From positions 1 through 5,284 of IMG/VR virus record IMGVR_UViG_3300045988_004808: a stretch of DNA of 5,284 nt; one strand, 5' to 3'. The stretch comes from a virus. Every line of letters begins with the position of its first letter. Position 1 is the first letter of the stretch. The position numbers and the translations under genes are program-made. The notes under the pieces are model-generated. The model worked only from the letters and a program-made list of their open reading frames with translations. It had not been told where the DNA came from and searched no databases. Shown here in pieces: positions 1-5,284 of the stretch.

Positions 1-55
1 AATACCATTACGGAGAACAGAACATAAGATTTTACGCTTGCGGCGAGTACGGAAG
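1..55. repeat. Terminal redundancy left copy, identical to 5230-5284; marks the circular junction of a 5229-bp genome
   Basis: A 55-nt exact match with the window end, read directly from the sequence. It lies inside the rep coding frame, so it is an artefact of linearising a circle rather than a biological repeat. Confidence 0.9.
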
Positions 56-629: not shown

Positions 630-680
630 AAAGGGGGCACGCCCCCTTTACCCCCTTGTAAAAGGGGGGTTTTATTTATA
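630..680 (+). terminator. Two tandem GC-rich stem-loops immediately after the rep stop codon, the second followed by a T-rich run (rho-independent terminator-like)
   Basis: In the first, AAAGGGGGC (630-638) pairs with GCCCCCTTT (641-649). In the second, CCCCCTT (651-657) pairs with AAGGGGG (662-668) across a GTAA loop, followed by GTTTTATTTATA. Confidence 0.6.
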
Positions 681-738: not shown

Positions 739-767
739 TAGAAAAACAAAAACAAAACACATATAAT
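739..767 (+). promoter_or_regulatory. Candidate promoter. A perfect TATAAT -10 hexamer lies at 762-767, with a weak -35-like TAGAAA at 739-744. Upstream is an A-tract repeat (AAAAACAAAAACAAAAC, 741-757).
   Basis: The AT-rich intergenic region sits about 25 nt upstream of the first SD and ATG of the gene string. The -35 element is poor, so confidence is low. Confidence 0.3.
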
Positions 768-791
768 CAATGTTGAAAGGAGGTGGAAAAA

Positions 792-905
792 ATGACGAAC
801 CTTAAAAGCGAAAGAAAAGATAAGCAAGTGTTCAAAGAAACCGCAGCGAAAACCAAGAAAATCAACATCGCACCGAAAGTAATGCGGGGCGGCATCAGAC
901 TGTAA
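792..905 (+). CDS. Small, highly basic protein (37 aa, MTNLKSERKDKQVFKETAAKTKKINIAPKVMRGGIRL). Probably the DNA-binding/packaging protein, analogous to phiX174 J and gokushovirus ORF8.
   Basis: SD GGAGG at 779-783 sits 8 nt before ATG 792. About 11 of 37 residues are K/R, and the size and position match microvirus J/ORF8 proteins. The C-terminal RGGIRL resembles the C-terminus of chlamydiaphage ORF8, recalled from memory and not checked. It is not in the ORF track because it is under 60 aa. Confidence 0.6.
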   Translation: MTNLKSERKDKQVFKETAAKTKKINIAPKVMRGGIRL

Positions 906-926
906 ACAAGCAAAGGAGAAAAGACA

Positions 927-1184
927 ATGAAAACCAACATCTACGCATTCAAAGACACCAAAATAGGCTTTATGCAGCCATTCCTCCAGCAGAACGAAGC
1001 AGTAGCCATGCGAACACTCAAAATGGCCGTGAACGATGAACACAGCCAAATCCGAAACATGGCCGAAGATATCCAATTGTACCAGCTCGGAACCTTTGAC
1101 GATGATACCGGGGAAATCGTACCGGAGGTAAAATTTATCGCAAACGCAATCGACCATAAGGAGGTGAATACCAATAGAGATTAA
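927..1184 (+). CDS. Hypothetical protein, 85 aa. Possibly a VP5-like nonstructural protein, but the function is not recognised.
   Basis: SD AAAGGAG at 912-918 sits 8 nt before ATG 927. It is on the coding strand within the gene string. Its 3' end contains the very strong SD AAGGAGGTG (1158-1166) that serves the next ORF. Confidence 0.55.
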   Translation: MKTNIYAFKDTKIGFMQPFLQQNEAVAMRTLKMAVNDEHSQIRNMAEDIQLYQLGTFDDDTGEIVPEVKFIANAIDHKEVNTNRD

Positions 1185-1347
1185 CGAAATCGTAAACATA
1201 ATCGGAACAATCGGCTTTCCTTGCGTAATTGCACTGCTGCTCCTAAAAAACAATCAGGAGCAAATAGACGTAATCAGAGAGAACACAAAGGTAATTCAGG
1301 CACTGGCCGACCGTATCGACAATGTACTTTCAAAAGGGGATGATTAA
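1168..1347 (+). CDS. Holin-like small membrane protein (BhlA/UviB-like architecture). The frame is open from 1168 but has no ATG/GTG/TTG; candidate starts are ATA 1174 and ATT 1180. Translation: ..INEIVNIIGTIGFPCVIALLLLKNNQEQIDVIRENTKVIQALADRIDNVLSKGDD.
   Basis: It has one roughly 20-residue hydrophobic segment followed by a charged C-terminal tail. A perfect SD AAGGAGGTG (1158-1166) lies 9 nt upstream of ATA 1174. The stop TAA 1345-1347 abuts the GTG start of the amidase, a holin-endolysin arrangement. Confidence 0.45.
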   Translation: MPIEINEIVNIIGTIGFPCVIALLLLKNNQEQIDVIRENTKVIQALADRIDNVLSKGDD

Positions 1348-1956
1348 GTGAGACTTCACACACAGACAGCATACAAAAACGCTTGTTACCAAGAAGGGCA
1401 AAAGATGAAACCGAAAGGCATCATGATACATTCGACAGGGGCAAACAATCCGAACCTGAGGCGGTATGTAGGACCAGATGATGGCATACTTGGAAAGAAC
1501 ATCTACAACAACCATTGGAACAACGCCTATCCGGGCGGGAAAGCAATCTGCTGCCATGCATTCATCGGCAAAGACAAAAACGGAGAAGTCCGAACTTATC
1601 AAATTCTGCCGTGGAGCATGGTAGGCTGGCACTGTGGAGGTAAGGCAAACAAAACCCATATTGGAATTGAAATCTGCGAAGACACCACAAGCAACGAACA
1701 CTTCAAAGAAACATTCCGAGAAGCCGTAGAAGTAGCAGCTTATCTATGCAAACTATATCAACTCCAACCGAAAAACATTATCAGCCACAAAGAAGGAAAC
1801 GCAAAAGGCCTAGCAAGTAACCATGGAGATCCGGAACATTGGTGGAAAAATTACGGTATCGACATGAGCGATTTCCGAAACGAAGTAGCAAAAGAACTTG
1901 ACAGGCAAAAAGTATACCATGCAATGATTTATGACACGAAAGGAGCAAACGAATGA
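1348..1956 (+). CDS. N-acetylmuramoyl-L-alanine amidase, amidase_2/PGRP family (PlyG/XlyA/CwlA-like endolysin). Catalytic domain only, 202 aa.
   Basis: Motifs MKPKGIMIHSTGAN, GWHCGG, HIGIEICE and IISHKEG...HGDPEHW line up with YITVHNTAN, GWHAG, SIGIEICEN and VVPHKYWSGKECP of Bacillus XlyA. The N-terminal region resembles PlyG (KYGTKCPYTMKPKYITVHNT); both comparator sequences are recalled from memory. SD AAAGGGGA sits 8 nt before GTG 1348. The stop overlaps the VP3 start as ATGA. Confidence 0.8.
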   Translation: MRLHTQTAYKNACYQEGQKMKPKGIMIHSTGANNPNLRRYVGPDDGILGKNIYNNHWNNAYPGGKAICCHAFIGKDKNGEVRTYQILPWSMVGWHCGGKANKTHIGIEICEDTTSNEHFKETFREAVEVAAYLCKLYQLQPKNIISHKEGNAKGLASNHGDPEHWWKNYGIDMSDFRNEVAKELDRQKVYHAMIYDTKGANE

Positions 1957-2450
1957 ACTTTTATAGCCGACTTAATCCAGCGCCGGTAATCGAAGCGCCG
2001 GCAGGAAGCAAAGAAGCAACAACCTACCAAACACAGATTGACGAGAACGGACACAAAGTAACAGTGCCAATCGGAAAGACAAACATCTATGACCGCATTC
2101 AAAGCAGCCTAGAGGAGACCAAAATTGAGAACATCATCAAACGGTTTACCGAAGGTGATATCTCGGCATTCAGGCAGGGCGAGCCACTGTATGCAGACAT
2201 GACCGAAGCACCACGAACACTGATGGAAGCACAAAACATGATTATCCGCATTACGAATGAATTTAACAATCTGCCGGTAGAGGTAAGGGCTAAATTTGAC
2301 CACAGTCCAGAAAAATACGTTGCACTGTACGGCGGCGAAGAGTGGGCAAAGGCTATAGGCTATGAAACCAAAAAAGCCGACACAGGCGAAATTCAGGGCG
2401 CTGGTGACGTAAGCACCGAACCTATTCCGAAACAGGAGGAGAAAGCATGA
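1953..2450 (+). CDS. VP3: Internal scaffolding protein VP3 (gokushovirus-type), 165 aa
   Basis: SD AGGAG at 1941-1945 sits 7 nt before ATG 1953. The motif MEAQNMIIRITNEFNNLPVEVRAKFDHSPEKYV matches the conserved VP3 scaffold signature (A-Q-x-I-I-R..F..LP..VR..F). It lies directly upstream of VP1 with ATGA start/stop coupling. Confidence 0.78.
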   Translation: MNFYSRLNPAPVIEAPAGSKEATTYQTQIDENGHKVTVPIGKTNIYDRIQSSLEETKIENIIKRFTEGDISAFRQGEPLYADMTEAPRTLMEAQNMIIRITNEFNNLPVEVRAKFDHSPEKYVALYGGEEWAKAIGYETKKADTGEIQGAGDVSTEPIPKQEEKA

Positions 2451-4105
2451 ACAGAAACACCGAAAGCCATTTTTCAGTAAATCCGATTAACCTTGATATC
2501 CAGCGAAGCAAATTTGTAAGACCGAGTACGCATAAGACCACATTCAACGCCGGAAACCTCATTCCGATTTATGTTGATGAAGTACTACCGGGCGATACCT
2601 TCAAGATGAATATGAGCAGCGTCATCCGTATGAGTACGCCTATATATCCTGTAATGGATAACGCCAACATGGATGTATATTTCTTCTTTGTACCTAACCG
2701 ACTTGTGTGGTATCACTGGAAAGAGTTTTTTGGAGAAAACAATACCACGCACTGGGAGCAACCGGTAGAATACGAAGCACCGCAAATCACCGCACCGGCG
2801 GGCGGATGGGCAAAAGGAACTATTGCCGACTATATGGGCATTCCAACGAAAATCGAAAACATCAGCGTACAGGCACTGCCATTCCGAGCATACTGTAAAA
2901 TCTGGAATGACTGGTTCAGAGACCAAAACTTGAAAGACCCTGCCATGATATCCATGGATGAAACGACAACGGCAGGAGCAAACACAGGAGACTATGTAAC
3001 CAATGCAGAGAAAGGAGCACTTCCTCTCAAAGTCGCAAAATACCATGACTATTTCACTGCAGCACTACCTGAACCTCAGAAAGGACCGGAAGTAACTATC
3101 GGCGCAGTAAACGGATATATACCGATTGTTACAAGGAACGAATTGGCAACAAATAGCACGACCAATGCACTAAGATGGAATGTAAACGGAAACACACCGA
3201 GTGCCCTATTAGTAGGCATAGCAACAGGAAAGAACACAGACGGAACGTCTAATACATTCACACCAAACACCGGCGGAAACGCGACATTTACAGGAAACAT
3301 TACACCGGCAAACCTGTGGGCAGAAATGGGTAACAATAGTGCGACCAGCATTAACGCTCTGCGACAGGCATTCGCAATTCAGAGATTGTACGAGAAAAAC
3401 GCACGCGGCGGTACTCGTTATATCGAGATTATCAAAGCACACTTCGGAGTACAGTCACCGGATGCCAGACAGCAGCGAAGCGAATATCTGGGCGGCACTC
3501 GAGTACCTATCAACATGGATCAGGTGGTACAGACCTCCAATTCCGGAGACGGTATCACACCGCAGGGCAACACGGCAGCATACTCTCTGACAGCATTCAA
3601 TGAAAGCATGTTCACCAAATCGTTTACCGAACACGGTTACATCATCGGACTGGCATGTATCAGAACTGAGCACACCTACCAACAGGGAATTGAGCGGTTT
3701 TGGAGCAGAAAGAAGATGCTGGACTACTACTTCCCAACTTTGGCAAACCTCGGAGAGCAAGCAATCCTGAACAAAGAAATCTATGCACAGGGCAACGCAA
3801 CGGACGATGAAGCATTCGGCTATCAGGAAGCATGGGCAGAATATCGGTACAAGCCGAGCAGAGTATCCGGAGCAATGCGAAGCAACTATCAGGCAACATT
3901 GGATGCATGGCACTATGCAGACAAGTACACCAAACAGCCTATCCTGTCGAGTGAATGGATTGACGAAACAAGCGCGAACATCGATAGAACACTTGCCGTT
4001 CAGAGCACAACCGAAGACCAATTTATTGCAGACTTTTATTTTGCATGTGAAGCAACAAGGCCTATGCCTCTGTATAGCATTCCCGGCCTGATTGACCATC
4101 ACTAA
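2447..4105 (+). CDS. VP1: Major capsid protein VP1 (microvirus F-protein fold, gokushovirus-type), 552 aa
   Basis: The N-terminal signature is IQRSKFVRPSTHKTTFNAGNLIPIYVDEVLPGDTF. Further motifs are MSTPIYPVMDN, FFFVPNRLVW, APAGGW, DYMGIPTK and LRQAFAIQRLYE...RYIEIIKAHFGV, which is a classic Microviridae VP1. SD AGGAGGAG lies upstream. Confidence 0.95.
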   Translation: MNRNTESHFSVNPINLDIQRSKFVRPSTHKTTFNAGNLIPIYVDEVLPGDTFKMNMSSVIRMSTPIYPVMDNANMDVYFFFVPNRLVWYHWKEFFGENNTTHWEQPVEYEAPQITAPAGGWAKGTIADYMGIPTKIENISVQALPFRAYCKIWNDWFRDQNLKDPAMISMDETTTAGANTGDYVTNAEKGALPLKVAKYHDYFTAALPEPQKGPEVTIGAVNGYIPIVTRNELATNSTTNALRWNVNGNTPSALLVGIATGKNTDGTSNTFTPNTGGNATFTGNITPANLWAEMGNNSATSINALRQAFAIQRLYEKNARGGTRYIEIIKAHFGVQSPDARQQRSEYLGGTRVPINMDQVVQTSNSGDGITPQGNTAAYSLTAFNESMFTKSFTEHGYIIGLACIRTEHTYQQGIERFWSRKKMLDYYFPTLANLGEQAILNKEIYAQGNATDDEAFGYQEAWAEYRYKPSRVSGAMRSNYQATLDAWHYADKYTKQPILSSEWIDETSANIDRTLAVQSTTEDQFIADFYFACEATRPMPLYSIPGLIDHH

Positions 4106-4119
4106 AGGAGGGGCAAACA

Positions 4120-4731
4120 ATGGCAGGAAGTAGAGGCCGAGGCATATTTGGAAGAGATAAAAATCTCGTTCAAGCAGGACAAAAAGCAGTAGATGCAGCT
4201 ATAAGCGGATTAGGTCTTACACTCAATCCAATTGCTAACACCACAGCAACAGCAGAAGCGGCATTCAACAAAAGCCAAATGAGCGCAGAACAGGCAATGG
4301 CCTTCGAAGCCAGCCAAGCAGCACAACAGATGGCATTCCAACGAGAAATGCTCCAAAATCAAATGCGGTTTAACAGCGCAGAAGCAGAAACCAACAGAGC
4401 ATGGCAAAGGGAAATGAGGCAAACAGCCTACCAAGACACAGTAAAAGACATGGTAAAAGCCGGAATAAATCCAATACTGGCAGCACAGTTAGGAGCAACC
4501 GGCCTATCAGGTGGAAGCACTGCAAGCGCAGGACTTGCAAGCGGAGCAATGGCCAGCGGCCACACAGCACAAATGCAACAGCAAACCGTACCGGATATCA
4601 TCCGAAACATCGGATATGCCATCACAACGGCAAAAGAAGCGGCAAAAGGACTGGAGGGATACACGAAAGAACTGGCCAATGAAAAACTCGACCGCTACGC
4701 AAAACAGGCAATCGGAAGTGTAAAAGGCTAA
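4120..4731 (+). CDS. VP2: Minor capsid / DNA pilot protein VP2, 203 aa
   Basis: SD AAAGGAGGGG sits 6-7 nt before ATG 4120. The protein is Gly/Ala/Gln-rich with the conserved gokushovirus VP2 core FNSAEAETNRAWQREMRQTAYQDTVKDMVKAGINPILAAQ. It lies immediately downstream of VP1. Confidence 0.82.
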   Translation: MAGSRGRGIFGRDKNLVQAGQKAVDAAISGLGLTLNPIANTTATAEAAFNKSQMSAEQAMAFEASQAAQQMAFQREMLQNQMRFNSAEAETNRAWQREMRQTAYQDTVKDMVKAGINPILAAQLGATGLSGGSTASAGLASGAMASGHTAQMQQQTVPDIIRNIGYAITTAKEAAKGLEGYTKELANEKLDRYAKQAIGSVKG

Positions 4732-4738
4732 ATTTTGT

Positions 4739-4800
4739 GTCAGTCAGCCCCATTGTAACAAGGTGACAATGGGGCTGACTGACCGGCCGCACAGCGGCCG
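4739..4800 (+). promoter_or_regulatory. A perfect 17-bp inverted repeat (GTCAGTCAGCCCCATTG 4739-4755 pairing with CAATGGGGCTGACTGAC 4767-4783, 11-nt loop) is followed by a 7-bp GC hairpin (CGGCCGC 4784-4790, GCGGCCG 4794-4800). There is no U-tract.
   Basis: Read directly from the sequence. Both hairpins sit between the VP2 stop and the rep SD. They are candidates for a complementary-strand priming site on the ssDNA, or a regulatory structure for rep. Confidence 0.55.
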
Positions 4801-4820
4801 AGGGAAAGGAGGTGAAAACT

Positions 4821-5284
4821 TTGCCATGTTATCATCCTTTGCGGCGATGGTGGTGGGGTGAGACCGACCAAGACGGAAAGCAAATCAACGCCAAAATCAC
4901 AAGCTGGGAAGTTGATACTCTATTCGAAAGGCCGATAGGCTTTGGAAAAATCCGGGGGCAATGGTCATCGGAAGAATGGAGCGAGGAAATACCATGCGGC
5001 AAATGCATAGGATGCCGACTTGAGTATAGTAGACAATGGGCGAACCGCTGTATGCTGGAAGCACAAGAATGGCCGGAAAACTGGTTTATCACTCTGACAT
5101 ACGATGATGCACATTTACCATTCAAAGAACGCATCGACACCAAGACCGGCGAAATGATGGAAGAATTCACACCGTCATTATATCCGCCGGACATTACAAA
5201 GTTTATGAAAGACCTCCGGCGGTACTGGAAATACCATTACGGAGAACAGAACATAAGATTTTACGCTTGCGGCGAGTACGGAAG
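4821..5284 (+). CDS. VP4: Replication initiation protein (Rep/VP4), N-terminal part. It starts at TTG 4821 (MPCYHPLRRWWWGETDQ...) and continues through the window end and across the circular junction into 3..623.
   Basis: SD GGAAAGGAGGTG at 4803-4814 sits 8 nt before TTG 4821. The N-terminus MPCYHPL is the canonical Microviridae Rep start. FITLTYDD is HUH motif 1. The frame runs open to 5284 and matches the frame at window positions 3-623 after subtracting 5229. Confidence 0.85.
   Translation, partial: MPCYHPLRRWWWGETDQDGKQINAKITSWEVDTLFERPIGFGKIRGQWSSEEWSEEIPCGKCIGCRLEYSRQWANRCMLEAQEWPENWFITLTYDDAHLPFKERIDTKTGEMMEEFTPSLYPPDITKFMKDLRRYWKYHYGEQNIRFYACGEYG
5230..5284. repeat. Terminal redundancy right copy, identical to 1-55
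   Basis: A 55-nt exact match with the window start. Confidence 0.9.

What the first reader, a model, noticed from the sequence alone, without database searches (positions are those of the whole stretch)
776..4821. Strong GGAGG Shine-Dalgarno upstream of every gene plus a Gram-positive-type lysin predicts a Firmicutes host for a gokushovirus-like phage
All eight starts carry an AGGAGG-type SD at 6-9 nt spacing. The starts are at 792, 927, 1174, 1348, 1953, 2447, 4120 and 4821. Bacteroidetes largely lack SD-led initiation, while Firmicutes depend on strong SDs. The endolysin is of the Bacillus/Clostridium phage type. Cultured microvirus hosts are Gram-negative or wall-less (Enterobacteria, Chlamydia, Bdellovibrio, Spiroplasma, Bacteroidetes prophages). 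A gokushovirus adapted to a cell-walled Firmicute would be unusual.
Basis: inference. Interest (0 to 1): 0.7.

Follow-up and report, generated by a model that had tools for sequence, protein, structure and literature searches.

The report
Gut microvirus of Gram-positive Clostridia
This is a complete small single-stranded-DNA gut phage whose ribosome-binding sites, borrowed cell-lysis genes and closest integrated relatives all point to a Gram-positive Clostridia host, which fits earlier computational predictions rather than overturning them.

Summary
The window is a complete circular microvirus genome of 5,229 nt plus a 55-nt overlap. It carries eight same-strand genes.

All eight listed positions are real gene starts, each preceded by a purine-rich Shine-Dalgarno (SD) site 7-9 nt upstream. 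Only five sites are AGGAGG. Two are AGGAG, and the lysin has a decayed AAGGGGA. The start at 1174 is ATA, not a canonical start codon.

The Firmicutes-host interpretation is supported by four independent lines:
- **SD strength.** Mean predicted SD pairing is -13.1 kcal/mol. Microviral prophages in Firmicutes genomes give -9.8 to -11.4, Proteobacteria and Chlamydia microviruses -5.2 to -7.5, and a Bacteroidota ssDNA phage -0.7.
- **Lysin.** The amidase is 54-60% identical to the catalytic domains of endolysins from tailed phages of Oscillospirales and from Clostridia genomes. No phage with a stated Gram-negative host appears among the matches.
- **Holin-like gene.** The adjacent 57-aa gene is 72-86% identical to a gene of gut phi29-like podoviruses.
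- **Integrated relatives.** The closest integrated VP1 relatives (55-58%) sit in large contigs of Clostridia and Oscillospiraceae.

The most likely host is a single-membrane (monoderm) member of Oscillospirales. The idea is not new. It was speculated in 2012, Firmicutes prophages were reported in 2022, and gut virome catalogues list Firmicutes as the commonest microvirus host. No direct host link such as a CRISPR spacer or an isolate was obtained.

The parts
1..55 (+). Terminal overlap, identical to 5230-5284. It shows a circular genome of 5,229 nt.
630..678 (+). Two tandem GC-rich hairpins followed by a T-run after the VP4 stop codon. Terminator-like end of the single transcription unit.
   Evidence: consensus scan and fold only
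739..767 (+). Promoter-like site TAGAAA-17-TATAAT just upstream of the first gene.
   Evidence: consensus match only; the total number of such sites is not above the shuffled expectation
778..783 (+). SD site AGGAGG, 8 nt before ATG 792.
792..905 (+). 37-aa basic J/VP8-like DNA-binding protein.
   Evidence: phrog_10695. Conserved in relatives and in the prophages.
914..918 (+). SD site AGGAG, 8 nt before ATG 927.
927..1184 (+). VP5 (Phage_ORF5) non-structural protein.
   Evidence: Pfam PF20577, E=2e-22
1159..1164 (+). SD site AGGAGG, 9 nt before ATA 1174, lying inside the end of VP5.
1174..1347 (+). 57-codon holin-like protein with one transmembrane segment. It has an ATA at the position where relatives have ATG.
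   Evidence: phrog_4898 'holin', E=8e-6. ATG in MG945746. pN/pS 0.02-0.14 among the four ATA genomes. Homologues in phi29-like podoviruses.
1334..1340 (+). Degenerate SD AAGGGGA before the lysin start. It is a decayed form of the AAAGGAGGTGA found at the same place in the podovirus homologues.
1348..1956 (+). N-acetylmuramoyl-L-alanine amidase (Amidase_2), catalytic domain only. Its GTG start directly abuts the stop codon of the holin-like gene.
   Evidence: Pfam PF01510, 65 bits. phrog_15001, E=4e-54. PlyL, XlyA and PlyG matches. Homologues.
1941..1945 (+). SD site AGGAG, 7 nt before ATG 1953.
1953..2450 (+). VP3 internal scaffolding protein.
   Evidence: Pfam Chlamy_scaf, E=1e-34
2434..2441 (+). 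SD site AGGAGGAG before ATG 2447.
2447..4105 (+). VP1 major capsid protein.
   Evidence: Pfam Phage_F, E=7e-177
4106..4111 (+). SD site AGGAGG, 8 nt before ATG 4120.
4120..4731 (+). VP2 DNA pilot protein.
   Evidence: PHROG pilot-protein families
4739..4800 (+). Long perfect hairpin at 4739-4783, followed by a 7-bp GC hairpin at 4784-4800, between VP2 and VP4.
   Evidence: DNA fold -32.1 kcal/mol, z=-9.3. Function not tested.
4807..4812 (+). SD site AGGAGG, 8 nt before TTG 4821.
4821..5284 (+). VP4 replication initiator. It starts at TTG ((M)PCYHP...) and continues across the circular junction to window position 623.
   Evidence: phrog_942 and Pfam REP_ORF2-G2P. N-terminus conserved in relatives.

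Best explanation
The window is the complete genome of a gut microvirus from a lineage sister to the classical Gokushovirinae. It infects a Firmicutes (Bacillota) bacterium, most probably a single-membrane member of Clostridia in or near Oscillospirales.

**Transcription and translation.** All eight genes appear to form one unit, running from a promoter-like site near 739-767 to tandem hairpins near 630-678. Seven of the eight genes are translated through strong SD pairing 7-9 nt upstream of the start codon, as expected for a host that relies on strong SD sites.

**Lysis.** Instead of a phiX174-type single lysis protein, the phage carries a two-gene cassette inserted between VP5 and VP3.
- The first gene is a 57-aa holin-like protein with one transmembrane segment. 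It is of a type shared with gut phi29-like podoviruses.
- The second gene is a signal-less Amidase_2 enzyme. It is derived from the catalytic domain of endolysins of tailed Clostridia phages and has lost the wall-binding domain.

The lysin has no strong SD of its own. It is probably translated by coupling to the holin-like gene, because the holin TAA is immediately followed by the lysin GTG. In this subclade the holin-like gene starts at ATA (or at ATT two codons later) behind a perfect AGGAGG. That would give low holin output and may delay lysis.

**Shown:** the gene content, the SD pattern, the homologies, the integrated relatives and purifying selection on the holin-like ORF.

**Inferred:** the host identity, holin function, translational coupling, ATA initiation and its effect on lysis timing.
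For: **Genome and genes.** Circular genome and gene set.

**SD sites.** Pattern and positional significance. Mean anti-SD pairing energies:
- window: -13.1 kcal/mol
- microviral prophages in Clostridia, Oscillospiraceae, Eubacteriales and Phascolarctobacterium: -9.8 to -11.4
- phiX174 -6.9, Chp2 -5.2, phiMH2K -6.6, EC6098 -7.5
- Cellulophaga ssDNA phage phi18:4: -0.7

**Lysin.**
- It is 54-60% identical over residues 1-188 to endolysins of Ca. Heliusvirales phages with stated hosts Oscillospirales, Oscillospiraceae, Evtepia and Anaerosphaera. It is 38% identical to those of Blautia and Faecalimonas phages.
- Named cellular homologues at 55-59% are from Clostridium sporogenes, Proteiniclasticum, Pseudogracilibacillus and a Clostridiales MAG.
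- The only solved-structure matches are PlyL, XlyA and PlyG, and H28, E108 and H147 align with PlyL H29, E90 and H129.

**Holin-like gene.** It is 72-86% identical to a gene in 15-kb phi29-like podoviruses. The DNA polymerase of those podoviruses is closest to that of Hungatella phage CH17P1, followed by Bacillus, Enterococcus and Clostridium perfringens phages.

**Integrated VP1 relatives (55-58% identity).**
- They lie in a 153-kb Clostridia contig, a 38-kb Clostridia contig, a 14.6-kb Oscillospiraceae contig and a 19.5-kb metagenome contig.
- The flanking efflux pump (RND family) on the 19.5-kb contig is 88-92% identical to pumps of Lawsonibacter, Flintibacter and Colidextribacter.
- Flanking genes include MurD-like ligase, a penicillin-binding protein, MltG, LexA, MiaA and MutL.
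- Bounding direct repeats were found for the 38-kb and 14.6-kb contigs and a 16-nt core for the 19.5-kb contig, but not for the 153-kb contig.
- The NJ tree groups the window with these prophages at 97% bootstrap. The classical gokushoviruses form a separate clade at 100%.

**Holin-like ORF under selection.** pN/pS is 0.02-0.14 among the four genomes that carry ATA.
Against: - No direct host link was obtained. CRISPR spacers could not be searched, and there is no isolate.
- No integrated copy of the lysin-bearing clade itself was seen. All lysin clusters of at least 70% identity sit on contigs of 5.8 kb or less, apart from one tandem concatemer. Only one close relative turned up in the metagenome scan.
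- The integrated relatives are only 55-58% identical in VP1. They lack the lysin and the holin-like gene, so host range could differ.
- Hosts of the Heliusvirales phages are themselves iPHoP predictions.
- Contig taxonomy comes from MAG labels. I checked it independently for one locus only.
- A 5.8-kb relative is binned in a Prevotella MAG, although its strong SD sites argue that it was mis-binned.
- Start positions for the prophage SD comparison were chosen by me near the projected N-termini, which may favour SD-bearing candidates.
- The tree is NJ only.
Confidence: 0.8

Rival explanations
1. The host is a double-membrane (diderm) Firmicute of the class Negativicutes, such as Phascolarctobacterium, Megasphaera or Veillonella. 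This would combine strong SD usage with the outer membrane that all cultured walled microvirus hosts possess.
For: SD strength cannot separate Negativicutes from single-membrane Firmicutes. A microviral prophage is integrated in a 113-kb Phascolarctobacterium contig between dif-like repeats. Some Heliusvirales are predicted to infect Negativicutes.
Against: The Phascolarctobacterium prophage groups with the classical gokushoviruses at 100% bootstrap, not with the window clade. The closest lysin relatives come from Oscillospirales, Evtepia and Anaerosphaera phages and from single-membrane Clostridia and Bacilli. The holin-like gene is shared with phi29-like podoviruses, whose cultured relatives in the phage collection almost all infect Gram-positive hosts. 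All four integrated members of the window's clade lie in Clostridia or Oscillospiraceae contigs.
Confidence: 0.08
2. The host is a Gram-negative gut bacterium of Proteobacteria or Bacteroidota, as for cultured microviruses. On this view the strong SD sites and the lysis genes are incidental products of horizontal transfer.
For: All cultured microviruses infect Gram-negative or wall-less hosts (reviewed in PMC9753089). Phage genes often carry stronger SD sites than their hosts' genes. Host-prediction tools often assign gut microviruses to Pseudomonadota (PMC12087655). One 5.8-kb relative is binned with a Prevotella MAG.
Against: SD pairing is about twice as strong as in microviruses of E. coli, Chlamydia and Bdellovibrio, and it is absent in a Bacteroidota ssDNA phage. 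No phage with a stated Gram-negative host appears among the lysin matches. The holin-like gene's relatives and every integrated relative within the clade are from Firmicutes contexts. The contig binned with Prevotella is an unintegrated 5.8-kb circle with strong SD sites.
Confidence: 0.04
3. The host is a Firmicute outside Oscillospirales, for example Lachnospirales, Erysipelotrichales, Peptostreptococcales or Bacilli.
For: Lysin homologues at 55-59% also occur in Clostridium, Proteiniclasticum and Pseudogracilibacillus. The closest cultured relative of the holin-sharing podoviruses infects Hungatella, a member of Lachnospiraceae. Two integrated relatives are labelled only 'Clostridia'. The microviral prophages published for Firmicutes are in Erysipelatoclostridium and Mammaliicoccus (PMC9239249).
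Against: The best lysin matches with a stated host are Oscillospirales, Oscillospiraceae and Evtepia at 56-60%, against 38% for Lachnospiraceae phages. Two of the four integrated clade members are in Oscillospiraceae.
Confidence: 0.3

Closest known systems
Gokushovirus WZ-2015a isolate 48Chd478 (KT264796, human faeces) and pig-faeces Microviridae sp. MG945319, MG945410, MG945347, MG945538 and others
   Same: They share 84-88% nucleotide identity over the whole genome, with the same gene order and the same holin-like plus amidase cassette. Three of the records examined (KT264796, MG945319, MG945410) also have the ATA at the holin-like start.
   Different: They differ from the window by 12-16% in sequence. 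In the GenBank records the lysin is unannotated or labelled 'similar to hypothetical protein', and the holin-like ORF is not annotated at all.
Classical Gokushovirinae: Chlamydia phage Chp2, Bdellovibrio phage phiMH2K, Escherichia phage EC6098, Spiroplasma phage SpV4
   Same: They have the same core gene set (VP1, VP2, VP3, VP4, VP5 and a J/VP8-like protein), a genome of about 4.5-5.3 kb and all genes on one strand.
   Different: VP1 identity is only 44-49% to Chp2, phiMH2K and EC6098 (the 40% figure for SpV4 rests on a truncated 88-residue translation). They form a separate clade with 100% NJ bootstrap. They have no holin-like gene or amidase. Their SD sites are much weaker, at -5.2 to -7.5 against -13.1 kcal/mol. 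Their hosts are Gram-negative or wall-less.
Microviral prophages in Clostridia and Oscillospiraceae contigs found here (L014, L015, L019, L039), and the Erysipelatoclostridium and Mammaliicoccus prophages reported by Kirchberger et al. 2022
   Same: They fall in the same VP1 clade at 97% NJ bootstrap (L039 was not included in the tree), with VP1 identity of 55-58%. They use strong SD sites and sit in Firmicutes contexts.
   Different: They are integrated, at dif-like repeats next to a tyrosine recombinase gene or within VP4. They lack the holin-like gene and the amidase. The window clade was seen only as free circles of about 5.2-5.4 kb. I did not compare the window with the published Erysipelatoclostridium and Mammaliicoccus prophages.
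Gut gokushoviruses and alpaviruses with a horizontally acquired M15_3 peptidase (Roux et al. 2012), and Families 7 and 14 with a peptidase/amidase (Kirchberger et al. 2022)
   Same: These are microviruses that acquired a peptidoglycan hydrolase from bacteria or dsDNA phages, presumably for lysis. In Roux 2012 the acquired gene was also used to argue for Clostridiales hosts.
   Different: Here the enzyme is an Amidase_2, not an M15 peptidase. It sits between VP5 and VP3, not between VP1 and VP4. It is paired with an identifiable holin-like gene that has its own separate dsDNA-phage relatives.
Canonical holin-endolysin cassettes of Firmicutes dsDNA phages, for example Bacillus prophage PlyL and XlyA and the Ca. 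Heliusvirales endolysins
   Same: A small membrane protein is encoded immediately upstream of a cytoplasmic, signal-less amidase. The lysin shares the catalytic-domain family and aligned catalytic and zinc-binding residues.
   Different: The lysin has no C-terminal wall-binding domain. Homologues carry SPOR, LysM, PG_binding_1 or SH3 domains. The holin-like gene and the lysin have different closest relatives: podoviruses for the first and Heliusvirales for the second. The holin-like gene lacks a canonical start codon.

Membership tests
Microviridae (Petitvirales) | Major capsid protein of the Phage_F jelly-roll family | tested here: met
   PF02305, E=6.7e-177, 590 bits
Microviridae (Petitvirales) | Rolling-circle replication initiator VP4/A | tested here: met
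   phrog_942 E=2e-73 and PF23343
Microviridae (Petitvirales) | Small circular genome with all genes on one strand | tested here: met
   5,229-nt unit with a 55-nt terminal overlap. All eight genes are on the + strand. That the genome is single-stranded cannot be tested from sequence.
Gokushovirinae-type gene set | VP2 pilot, VP3 Chlamy_scaf scaffold and VP5 present; no phiX-type spike (G) or external scaffold (D) genes | tested here: met
   PF09675, PF20577 and PHROG pilot-protein families. No other ORFs had matches.
Gokushovirinae sensu stricto (clade of Chp2, phiMH2K, SpV4, EC6098) | VP1 groups inside the clade of the classified genera | tested here: not met
   In the NJ tree the classical clade has 100% bootstrap and excludes the window. 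The window clade has 97% bootstrap. This is NJ only. GenBank nevertheless labels the nearest relative as Gokushovirinae.
SD-led translation initiation (Firmicutes-like) | Complementarity to the 16S rRNA 3' end, 5-10 nt upstream of most start codons | tested here: met
   All 8 starts score -8 kcal/mol or better, with a mean of -13.1
Amidase_2 / PGRP-fold N-acetylmuramoyl-L-alanine amidase | Pfam PF01510 above the gathering score | tested here: met
   65.4 bits against a cut-off of 26
Amidase_2 / PGRP-fold N-acetylmuramoyl-L-alanine amidase | Zinc ligands and catalytic Glu conserved | tested here: inconclusive
   H28, E108 and H147 align with PlyL H29, E90 and H129. The third ligand, probably D161 in the HGDP motif, lies outside the aligned block.
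Modular Gram-positive endolysin (catalytic domain plus wall-binding domain) | C-terminal cell-wall-binding domain | tested here: not met
   The 202-aa protein has only the Amidase_2 domain. Homologues of 230-420 aa carry SPOR, LysM, PG_binding_1 or SH3 domains.
Holin-endolysin lysis cassette | Small membrane protein encoded next to the muralytic enzyme | tested here: met
   57-aa ORF with one hydrophobic segment (residues ~6-24, read from the sequence). Its stop codon abuts the lysin start. phrog_4898 'holin' E=8e-6.
Holin-endolysin lysis cassette | Membrane-permeabilising activity that releases the lysin | not testable with these tools
   This needs expression and lysis assays. In the podovirus homologues the gene is not adjacent to the GH25 lysin, so holin function remains an inference.
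Xer/dif-exploiting temperate gokushovirus (Enterogokushovirus-like) | A dif-like motif in the phage genome and integrated copies at host dif sites | tested here: inconclusive
   More distant relatives are integrated between dif-like repeats. No integrated copy of the window's own clade was found. I did not search the window systematically for a dif-like motif.

The most novel reading that the evidence does not exclude
This clade may be an obligately lytic microvirus of single-membrane Oscillospirales that assembled a two-component lysis cassette from two unrelated dsDNA phage lineages. The holin-like gene would come from the gene pool of phi29-like podoviruses. The amidase would be a catalytic domain stripped from a Heliusvirales-type endolysin. 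The phage would tune lysis timing through an AUA- or AUU-initiated holin and a translationally coupled lysin. If that is right, it would be a tractable 5.2-kb model for how a tailless ssDNA phage enters and leaves a thick-walled Gram-positive cell, for which no cultured example exists.
Probability: 0.4. Interest if true: 0.6.

Novelty: new member of a known kind. Interest (0 to 1): 0.42.

Why it matters
Microviruses are among the most abundant phages in gut viromes. Every cultured one infects a Gram-negative or wall-less host, and host-prediction tools often assign gut microviruses to Proteobacteria.

This genome gives several concordant, sequence-level reasons to place one widespread human and pig gut clade on Clostridia, probably Oscillospirales. 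It also names concrete handles for isolating or rebooting the phage: the candidate host group, a lysin to test on cell walls, and the holin-like gene. A cultured Gram-positive microvirus would open the question of how a tailless T=1 ssDNA phage crosses a thick peptidoglycan wall.

The result also shows gene flow from dsDNA tailed phages into a 5-kb ssDNA genome, and a likely non-AUG-initiated holin. The host idea itself, however, is already in the literature.

Tried and rejected
- **CRISPR spacer matching.** Not possible with these tools. The collection scans need one exact pattern, and I used the single genome-contig scan for VP1.
- **Integrated copy of the window's own clade.** None found. 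All lysin clusters of at least 70% identity and nearly all holin-like clusters sit on contigs of about 5.2-5.8 kb. The 11.3-kb NCBI contig L009 is a tandem of two variants, not an integration.
- **Longer contigs carrying the holin-like gene.** They turned out to be phi29-like podoviruses, not prophage junctions.
- **Metagenome contig L112.** It looked like an integration, but it encodes a fused PolA-VP1 ORF at about 3x coverage. I treated it as an assembly chimera.
- **Metagenome contig L039.** It looked like a Gram-negative counter-example because of the TolC-like, HlyD and RND efflux-pump genes in its flank. The pump is 88-92% identical to Oscillospiraceae proteins, so the locus supports the Firmicutes reading instead.
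- **Pfam for the holin-like protein.** Only sub-threshold YvrJ and DUF3090 hits at E~0.15.
- **GTG at 783 as the start of the first gene.** Rejected, because it lies inside the SD motif itself.
- **ATG at 1405 as the lysin start.** Rejected, because residues 1-19 align with the N-termini of tailed-phage endolysins.
- **Literature.** Searches found no cultured Gram-positive microvirus and no description of this cassette.

Full report
**What the window is.** The first 55 bases repeat at the end, so the window is a circular genome of 5,229 nt. It has eight genes, all on the + strand:
- a 37-aa J/VP8-like basic protein (792-905)
- VP5 (927-1184)
- a 57-codon protein with one transmembrane segment (1174-1347)
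- an Amidase_2 enzyme (1348-1956)
- VP3 scaffold (1953-2450)
- VP1 capsid (2447-4105)
- VP2 pilot (4120-4731)
- VP4/Rep, starting at TTG 4821 and wrapping round to 623

These assignments rest on Pfam and PHROG matches. Whole-genome relatives at 84-88% nucleotide identity are already in GenBank. They are Gokushovirus WZ-2015a from human faeces and eight Microviridae sp. genomes from pig faeces. In those records the lysin is unannotated or labelled 'hypothetical', and the small membrane protein is not annotated at all.

**Checking the observation.**
- AGGAGG occurs five times, only on the + strand. Each copy starts 13-15 nt before a start codon: 792, 1174, 2447, 4120 and 4821.
- Starts 927 and 1953 have AGGAG.
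- The lysin start at 1348 has only AAGGGGA.

The AGGAGG count alone is weakly enriched, with 5 observed against 2.0 expected. The placement is not chance; its positional probability is about 6.5e-11.

The lysin GTG directly follows the TAA of the upstream gene. Its weak SD is a decayed form of the AAAGGAGGTGA that ends the homologous gene in podoviruses. Translational coupling is therefore the likely route for the lysin; this is an inference.

**Does SD strength say anything about the host?** I computed anti-SD duplex energies for the 20 nt upstream of gene starts.

| Genome or group | Mean energy (kcal/mol) |
|---|---|
| Window | -13.1 |
| Microviral prophages in Clostridia, Oscillospiraceae, Eubacteriales and Phascolarctobacterium contigs | -9.8 to -11.4 |
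| phiX174 | -6.9 |
| EC6098 | -7.5 |
| phiMH2K | -6.6 |
| Chp2 | -5.2 |
| Bacteroidota ssDNA phage phi18:4 | -0.7 |

In this small sample SD strength tracks the host phylum, and the window sits at the Firmicutes end. On its own this firmly excludes only a Bacteroidota-type host. I chose the prophage start positions myself near the projected N-termini, which may bias those values slightly.

**The lysin.**
- tblastn against 50,697 phage records found the nine microviral relatives. The next matches, at 54-60% identity over residues 1-188, are endolysins of Ca. Heliusvirales tailed phages with stated hosts Oscillospirales, Oscillospiraceae, Evtepia and Anaerosphaera.
- Blautia and Faecalimonas phages follow at 38%, and Listeria phages match weakly. 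No phage with a stated Gram-negative host appears; a few weak matches have no stated host. The Heliusvirales hosts are iPHoP predictions and are mostly Firmicutes.
- In the 5.8-billion-protein search, the named cellular homologues at 55-59% are from Clostridium sporogenes, Proteiniclasticum ruminis, Pseudogracilibacillus and a Clostridiales MAG. These carry C-terminal SPOR, LysM, PG_binding_1 or SH3 domains. The microviral proteins (183-202 aa as called) have the catalytic domain only.
- The only sequence matches among solved structures are the Bacillus (pro)phage amidases PlyL, XlyA and PlyG. H28, E108 and H147 align with PlyL H29, E90 and H129.

So the 'Bacillus/Clostridium phage type' holds for the catalytic domain. 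The protein is not a modular Gram-positive endolysin.

**The small membrane protein.** It matches PHROG 4898 'holin' at E=8e-6 and sits immediately upstream of the lysin.
- More than 40 protein clusters of 57 aa occur on microvirus contigs of about 5.2-5.4 kb. One is named 'YvrJ protein family protein [Microviridae sp.]'.
- Copies at 72-86% identity occur in gut podoviruses of about 15 kb. These have protein-primed PolB, phi29 SSB, the gp16 ATPase, the phi29 capsid protein and a connector.
- The PolB of those podoviruses is closest to that of Hungatella phage CH17P1 (53%). Bacillus phi29-group, Enterococcus and Clostridium perfringens phages follow.

The two lysis genes therefore have different closest relatives, both among dsDNA phages of Gram-positive bacteria. 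In the podoviruses the gene is not next to the GH25 lysin, so holin function is an inference from position, size, topology and the PHROG match.

**The ATA start.** At the position of ATA 1174, the more distant relative MG945746 has ATG, as must the many gene-called 57-aa homologues. Four genomes carry ATA: the window, KT264796, MG945319 and MG945410. The reading frame has no ATG, GTG or TTG before the transmembrane segment. Among those four genomes the ORF shows pS 0.21-0.59 and pN 0.008-0.072. It is therefore still under purifying selection and must be translated, presumably from ATA, or from ATT two codons later, behind a perfect AGGAGG.

**Integrated relatives.** I scanned one genome per GTDB species with a VP1 alignment. 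This found eight loci.
- Five are complete microviral gene sets inside large contigs: a Clostridia MAG (153 kb, 57%), a Clostridia MAG (38 kb, 58%), Oscillospiraceae (14.6 kb, 58%), Eubacteriales (114 kb, 46%) and Phascolarctobacterium (113 kb, 46%).
- Their flanks carry housekeeping genes: a MurD-like ligase, a penicillin-binding protein, MltG, LexA, MiaA, MutL, PrmA and Sua5.
- Four of the five are bounded by imperfect direct repeats. The Phascolarctobacterium repeats resemble a Firmicutes dif site; that comparison is from my own knowledge of dif.
- In four loci a tyrosine recombinase gene lies just outside the element.

The metagenome scan added L039 (VP1 55%). It is integrated with VP4 split at a 16-nt core. 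Its flanking genes, which encode TolC-like, HlyD and RND efflux-pump components, looked Gram-negative. The pump protein is 88-92% identical to proteins of Lawsonibacter, Flintibacter, Colidextribacter and Oscillospiraceae.

An NJ tree of VP1 groups the window clade, other faecal microviruses and the three Clostridia and Oscillospiraceae prophages, plus a 5.8-kb contig binned with Prevotella. This group has 97% bootstrap. Chp2, phiMH2K, EC6098, a Gammaproteobacteria MAG contig and the Phascolarctobacterium prophage form a separate clade at 100%.

**What was not found.** There was no integrated copy of the lysin-bearing clade itself. CRISPR evidence could not be obtained with these tools. The integrated relatives lack the lysis cassette. 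The cassette therefore seems to be a recent acquisition by the window's immediate clade, whose members share at least about 83% VP1 identity.

**Comparison with the literature.**
- Roux et al. 2012 found M15 peptidases in gut gokushoviruses with Faecalibacterium-like relatives. [quoted passage not shown]
- Kirchberger et al. 2022 reported complete microviral prophages in Erysipelatoclostridium and Mammaliicoccus as the first cases in Gram-positives. They also noted accessory peptidase/amidase genes.
- A Chinese gut virome catalogue found Firmicutes to be the commonest identifiable host of Microviridae. Another study's tool assigned most microviruses to Pseudomonadota.
- I found no cultured Gram-positive microvirus and no description of this holin-like plus amidase cassette.

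**Verdict.** The Firmicutes-host interpretation is well supported, with Oscillospirales the most likely order. It is a new, well-characterised member of an already recognised kind. The cassette's dual origin and the non-AUG holin start are the freshest details.

Noticed in passing
window 1174-1347: The holin-like ORF has ATA where relative MG945746 and many 57-aa homologues have ATG. Four genomes share the ATA, and the ORF is still under strong purifying selection (pN/pS 0.02-0.14). This implies initiation at AUA or AUU behind a perfect AGGAGG.
   Followed up: yes
L027 7830-8003; L028 7449-7619; L031 7792-7965; L007 2615-2812: The same small membrane protein, at 58-86% identity, is encoded in gut phi29-like podoviruses of about 15 kb. 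There it lies between the gp16 packaging ATPase and the scaffold and capsid genes, away from their GH25 lysin. This indicates gene sharing between an ssDNA microvirus and dsDNA podoviruses.
   Followed up: partly
L014 12485-13513; L015 9717-10763; L017 5497-6477; L019 2454-3500: In four independent Clostridia contigs a tyrosine recombinase gene lies immediately outside the microviral prophage (outside the bounding repeats in L015, L017 and L019; no repeats were found in L014). This suggests integration at a dif-like site next to a Xer-type recombinase gene, in the manner of XerS or XerH.
   Followed up: partly
L020 7854-7874 and 12727-12747: The Phascolarctobacterium (double-membrane Firmicute) prophage is flanked by ATATTATGTAAAATTAT repeats that resemble a Firmicutes dif site. 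Its VP1 groups with the classical gokushoviruses of Gram-negative hosts, not with the prophages of single-membrane Clostridia.
   Followed up: partly
L039 202-5360: A microviral prophage in a Lawsonibacter-like Oscillospiraceae contig is integrated with its VP4 (Rep) gene split at a 16-nt core, GTTAC(G/T)CCCCTTGC. The attachment site therefore lies inside the replication gene.
   Followed up: partly
L009 (GCA_019971095.1 contig JAHXDW010001580.1), 1-11339: An 11.3-kb contig holds two non-identical copies of this microvirus type in tandem. The VP1 proteins are 557 and 553 aa and the VP2 proteins 203 and 216 aa. It is either a heterodimeric concatemer or an assembly artefact.
   Followed up: no
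window 4739-4800: A long perfect hairpin plus a 7-bp GC hairpin lie between VP2 and VP4 (DNA fold -32.1 kcal/mol, z=-9.3). They could be a complementary-strand origin or an attenuator. Function unknown.
   Followed up: partly
L016 (5.8-kb contig in a Prevotella MAG bin): This unintegrated microvirus contig binned with Prevotella has strong GGAGG-type SD sites at its genes (mean -11 kcal/mol). That does not fit a Bacteroidota host, so it is probably mis-binned.
   Followed up: partly
L112 7982-10240: A low-coverage human-gut contig encodes a single ORF that fuses DNA polymerase I to the C-terminus of a microviral VP1. It is most likely an assembly chimera.
   Followed up: partly
window 1348-1956 compared with homologues: The microviral amidase is a stripped catalytic domain. 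Cellular and tailed-phage homologues carry SPOR, LysM, PG_binding_1 or SH3 wall-binding domains. The loss is consistent with the tight genome-size limit of a T=1 capsid.
   Followed up: partly
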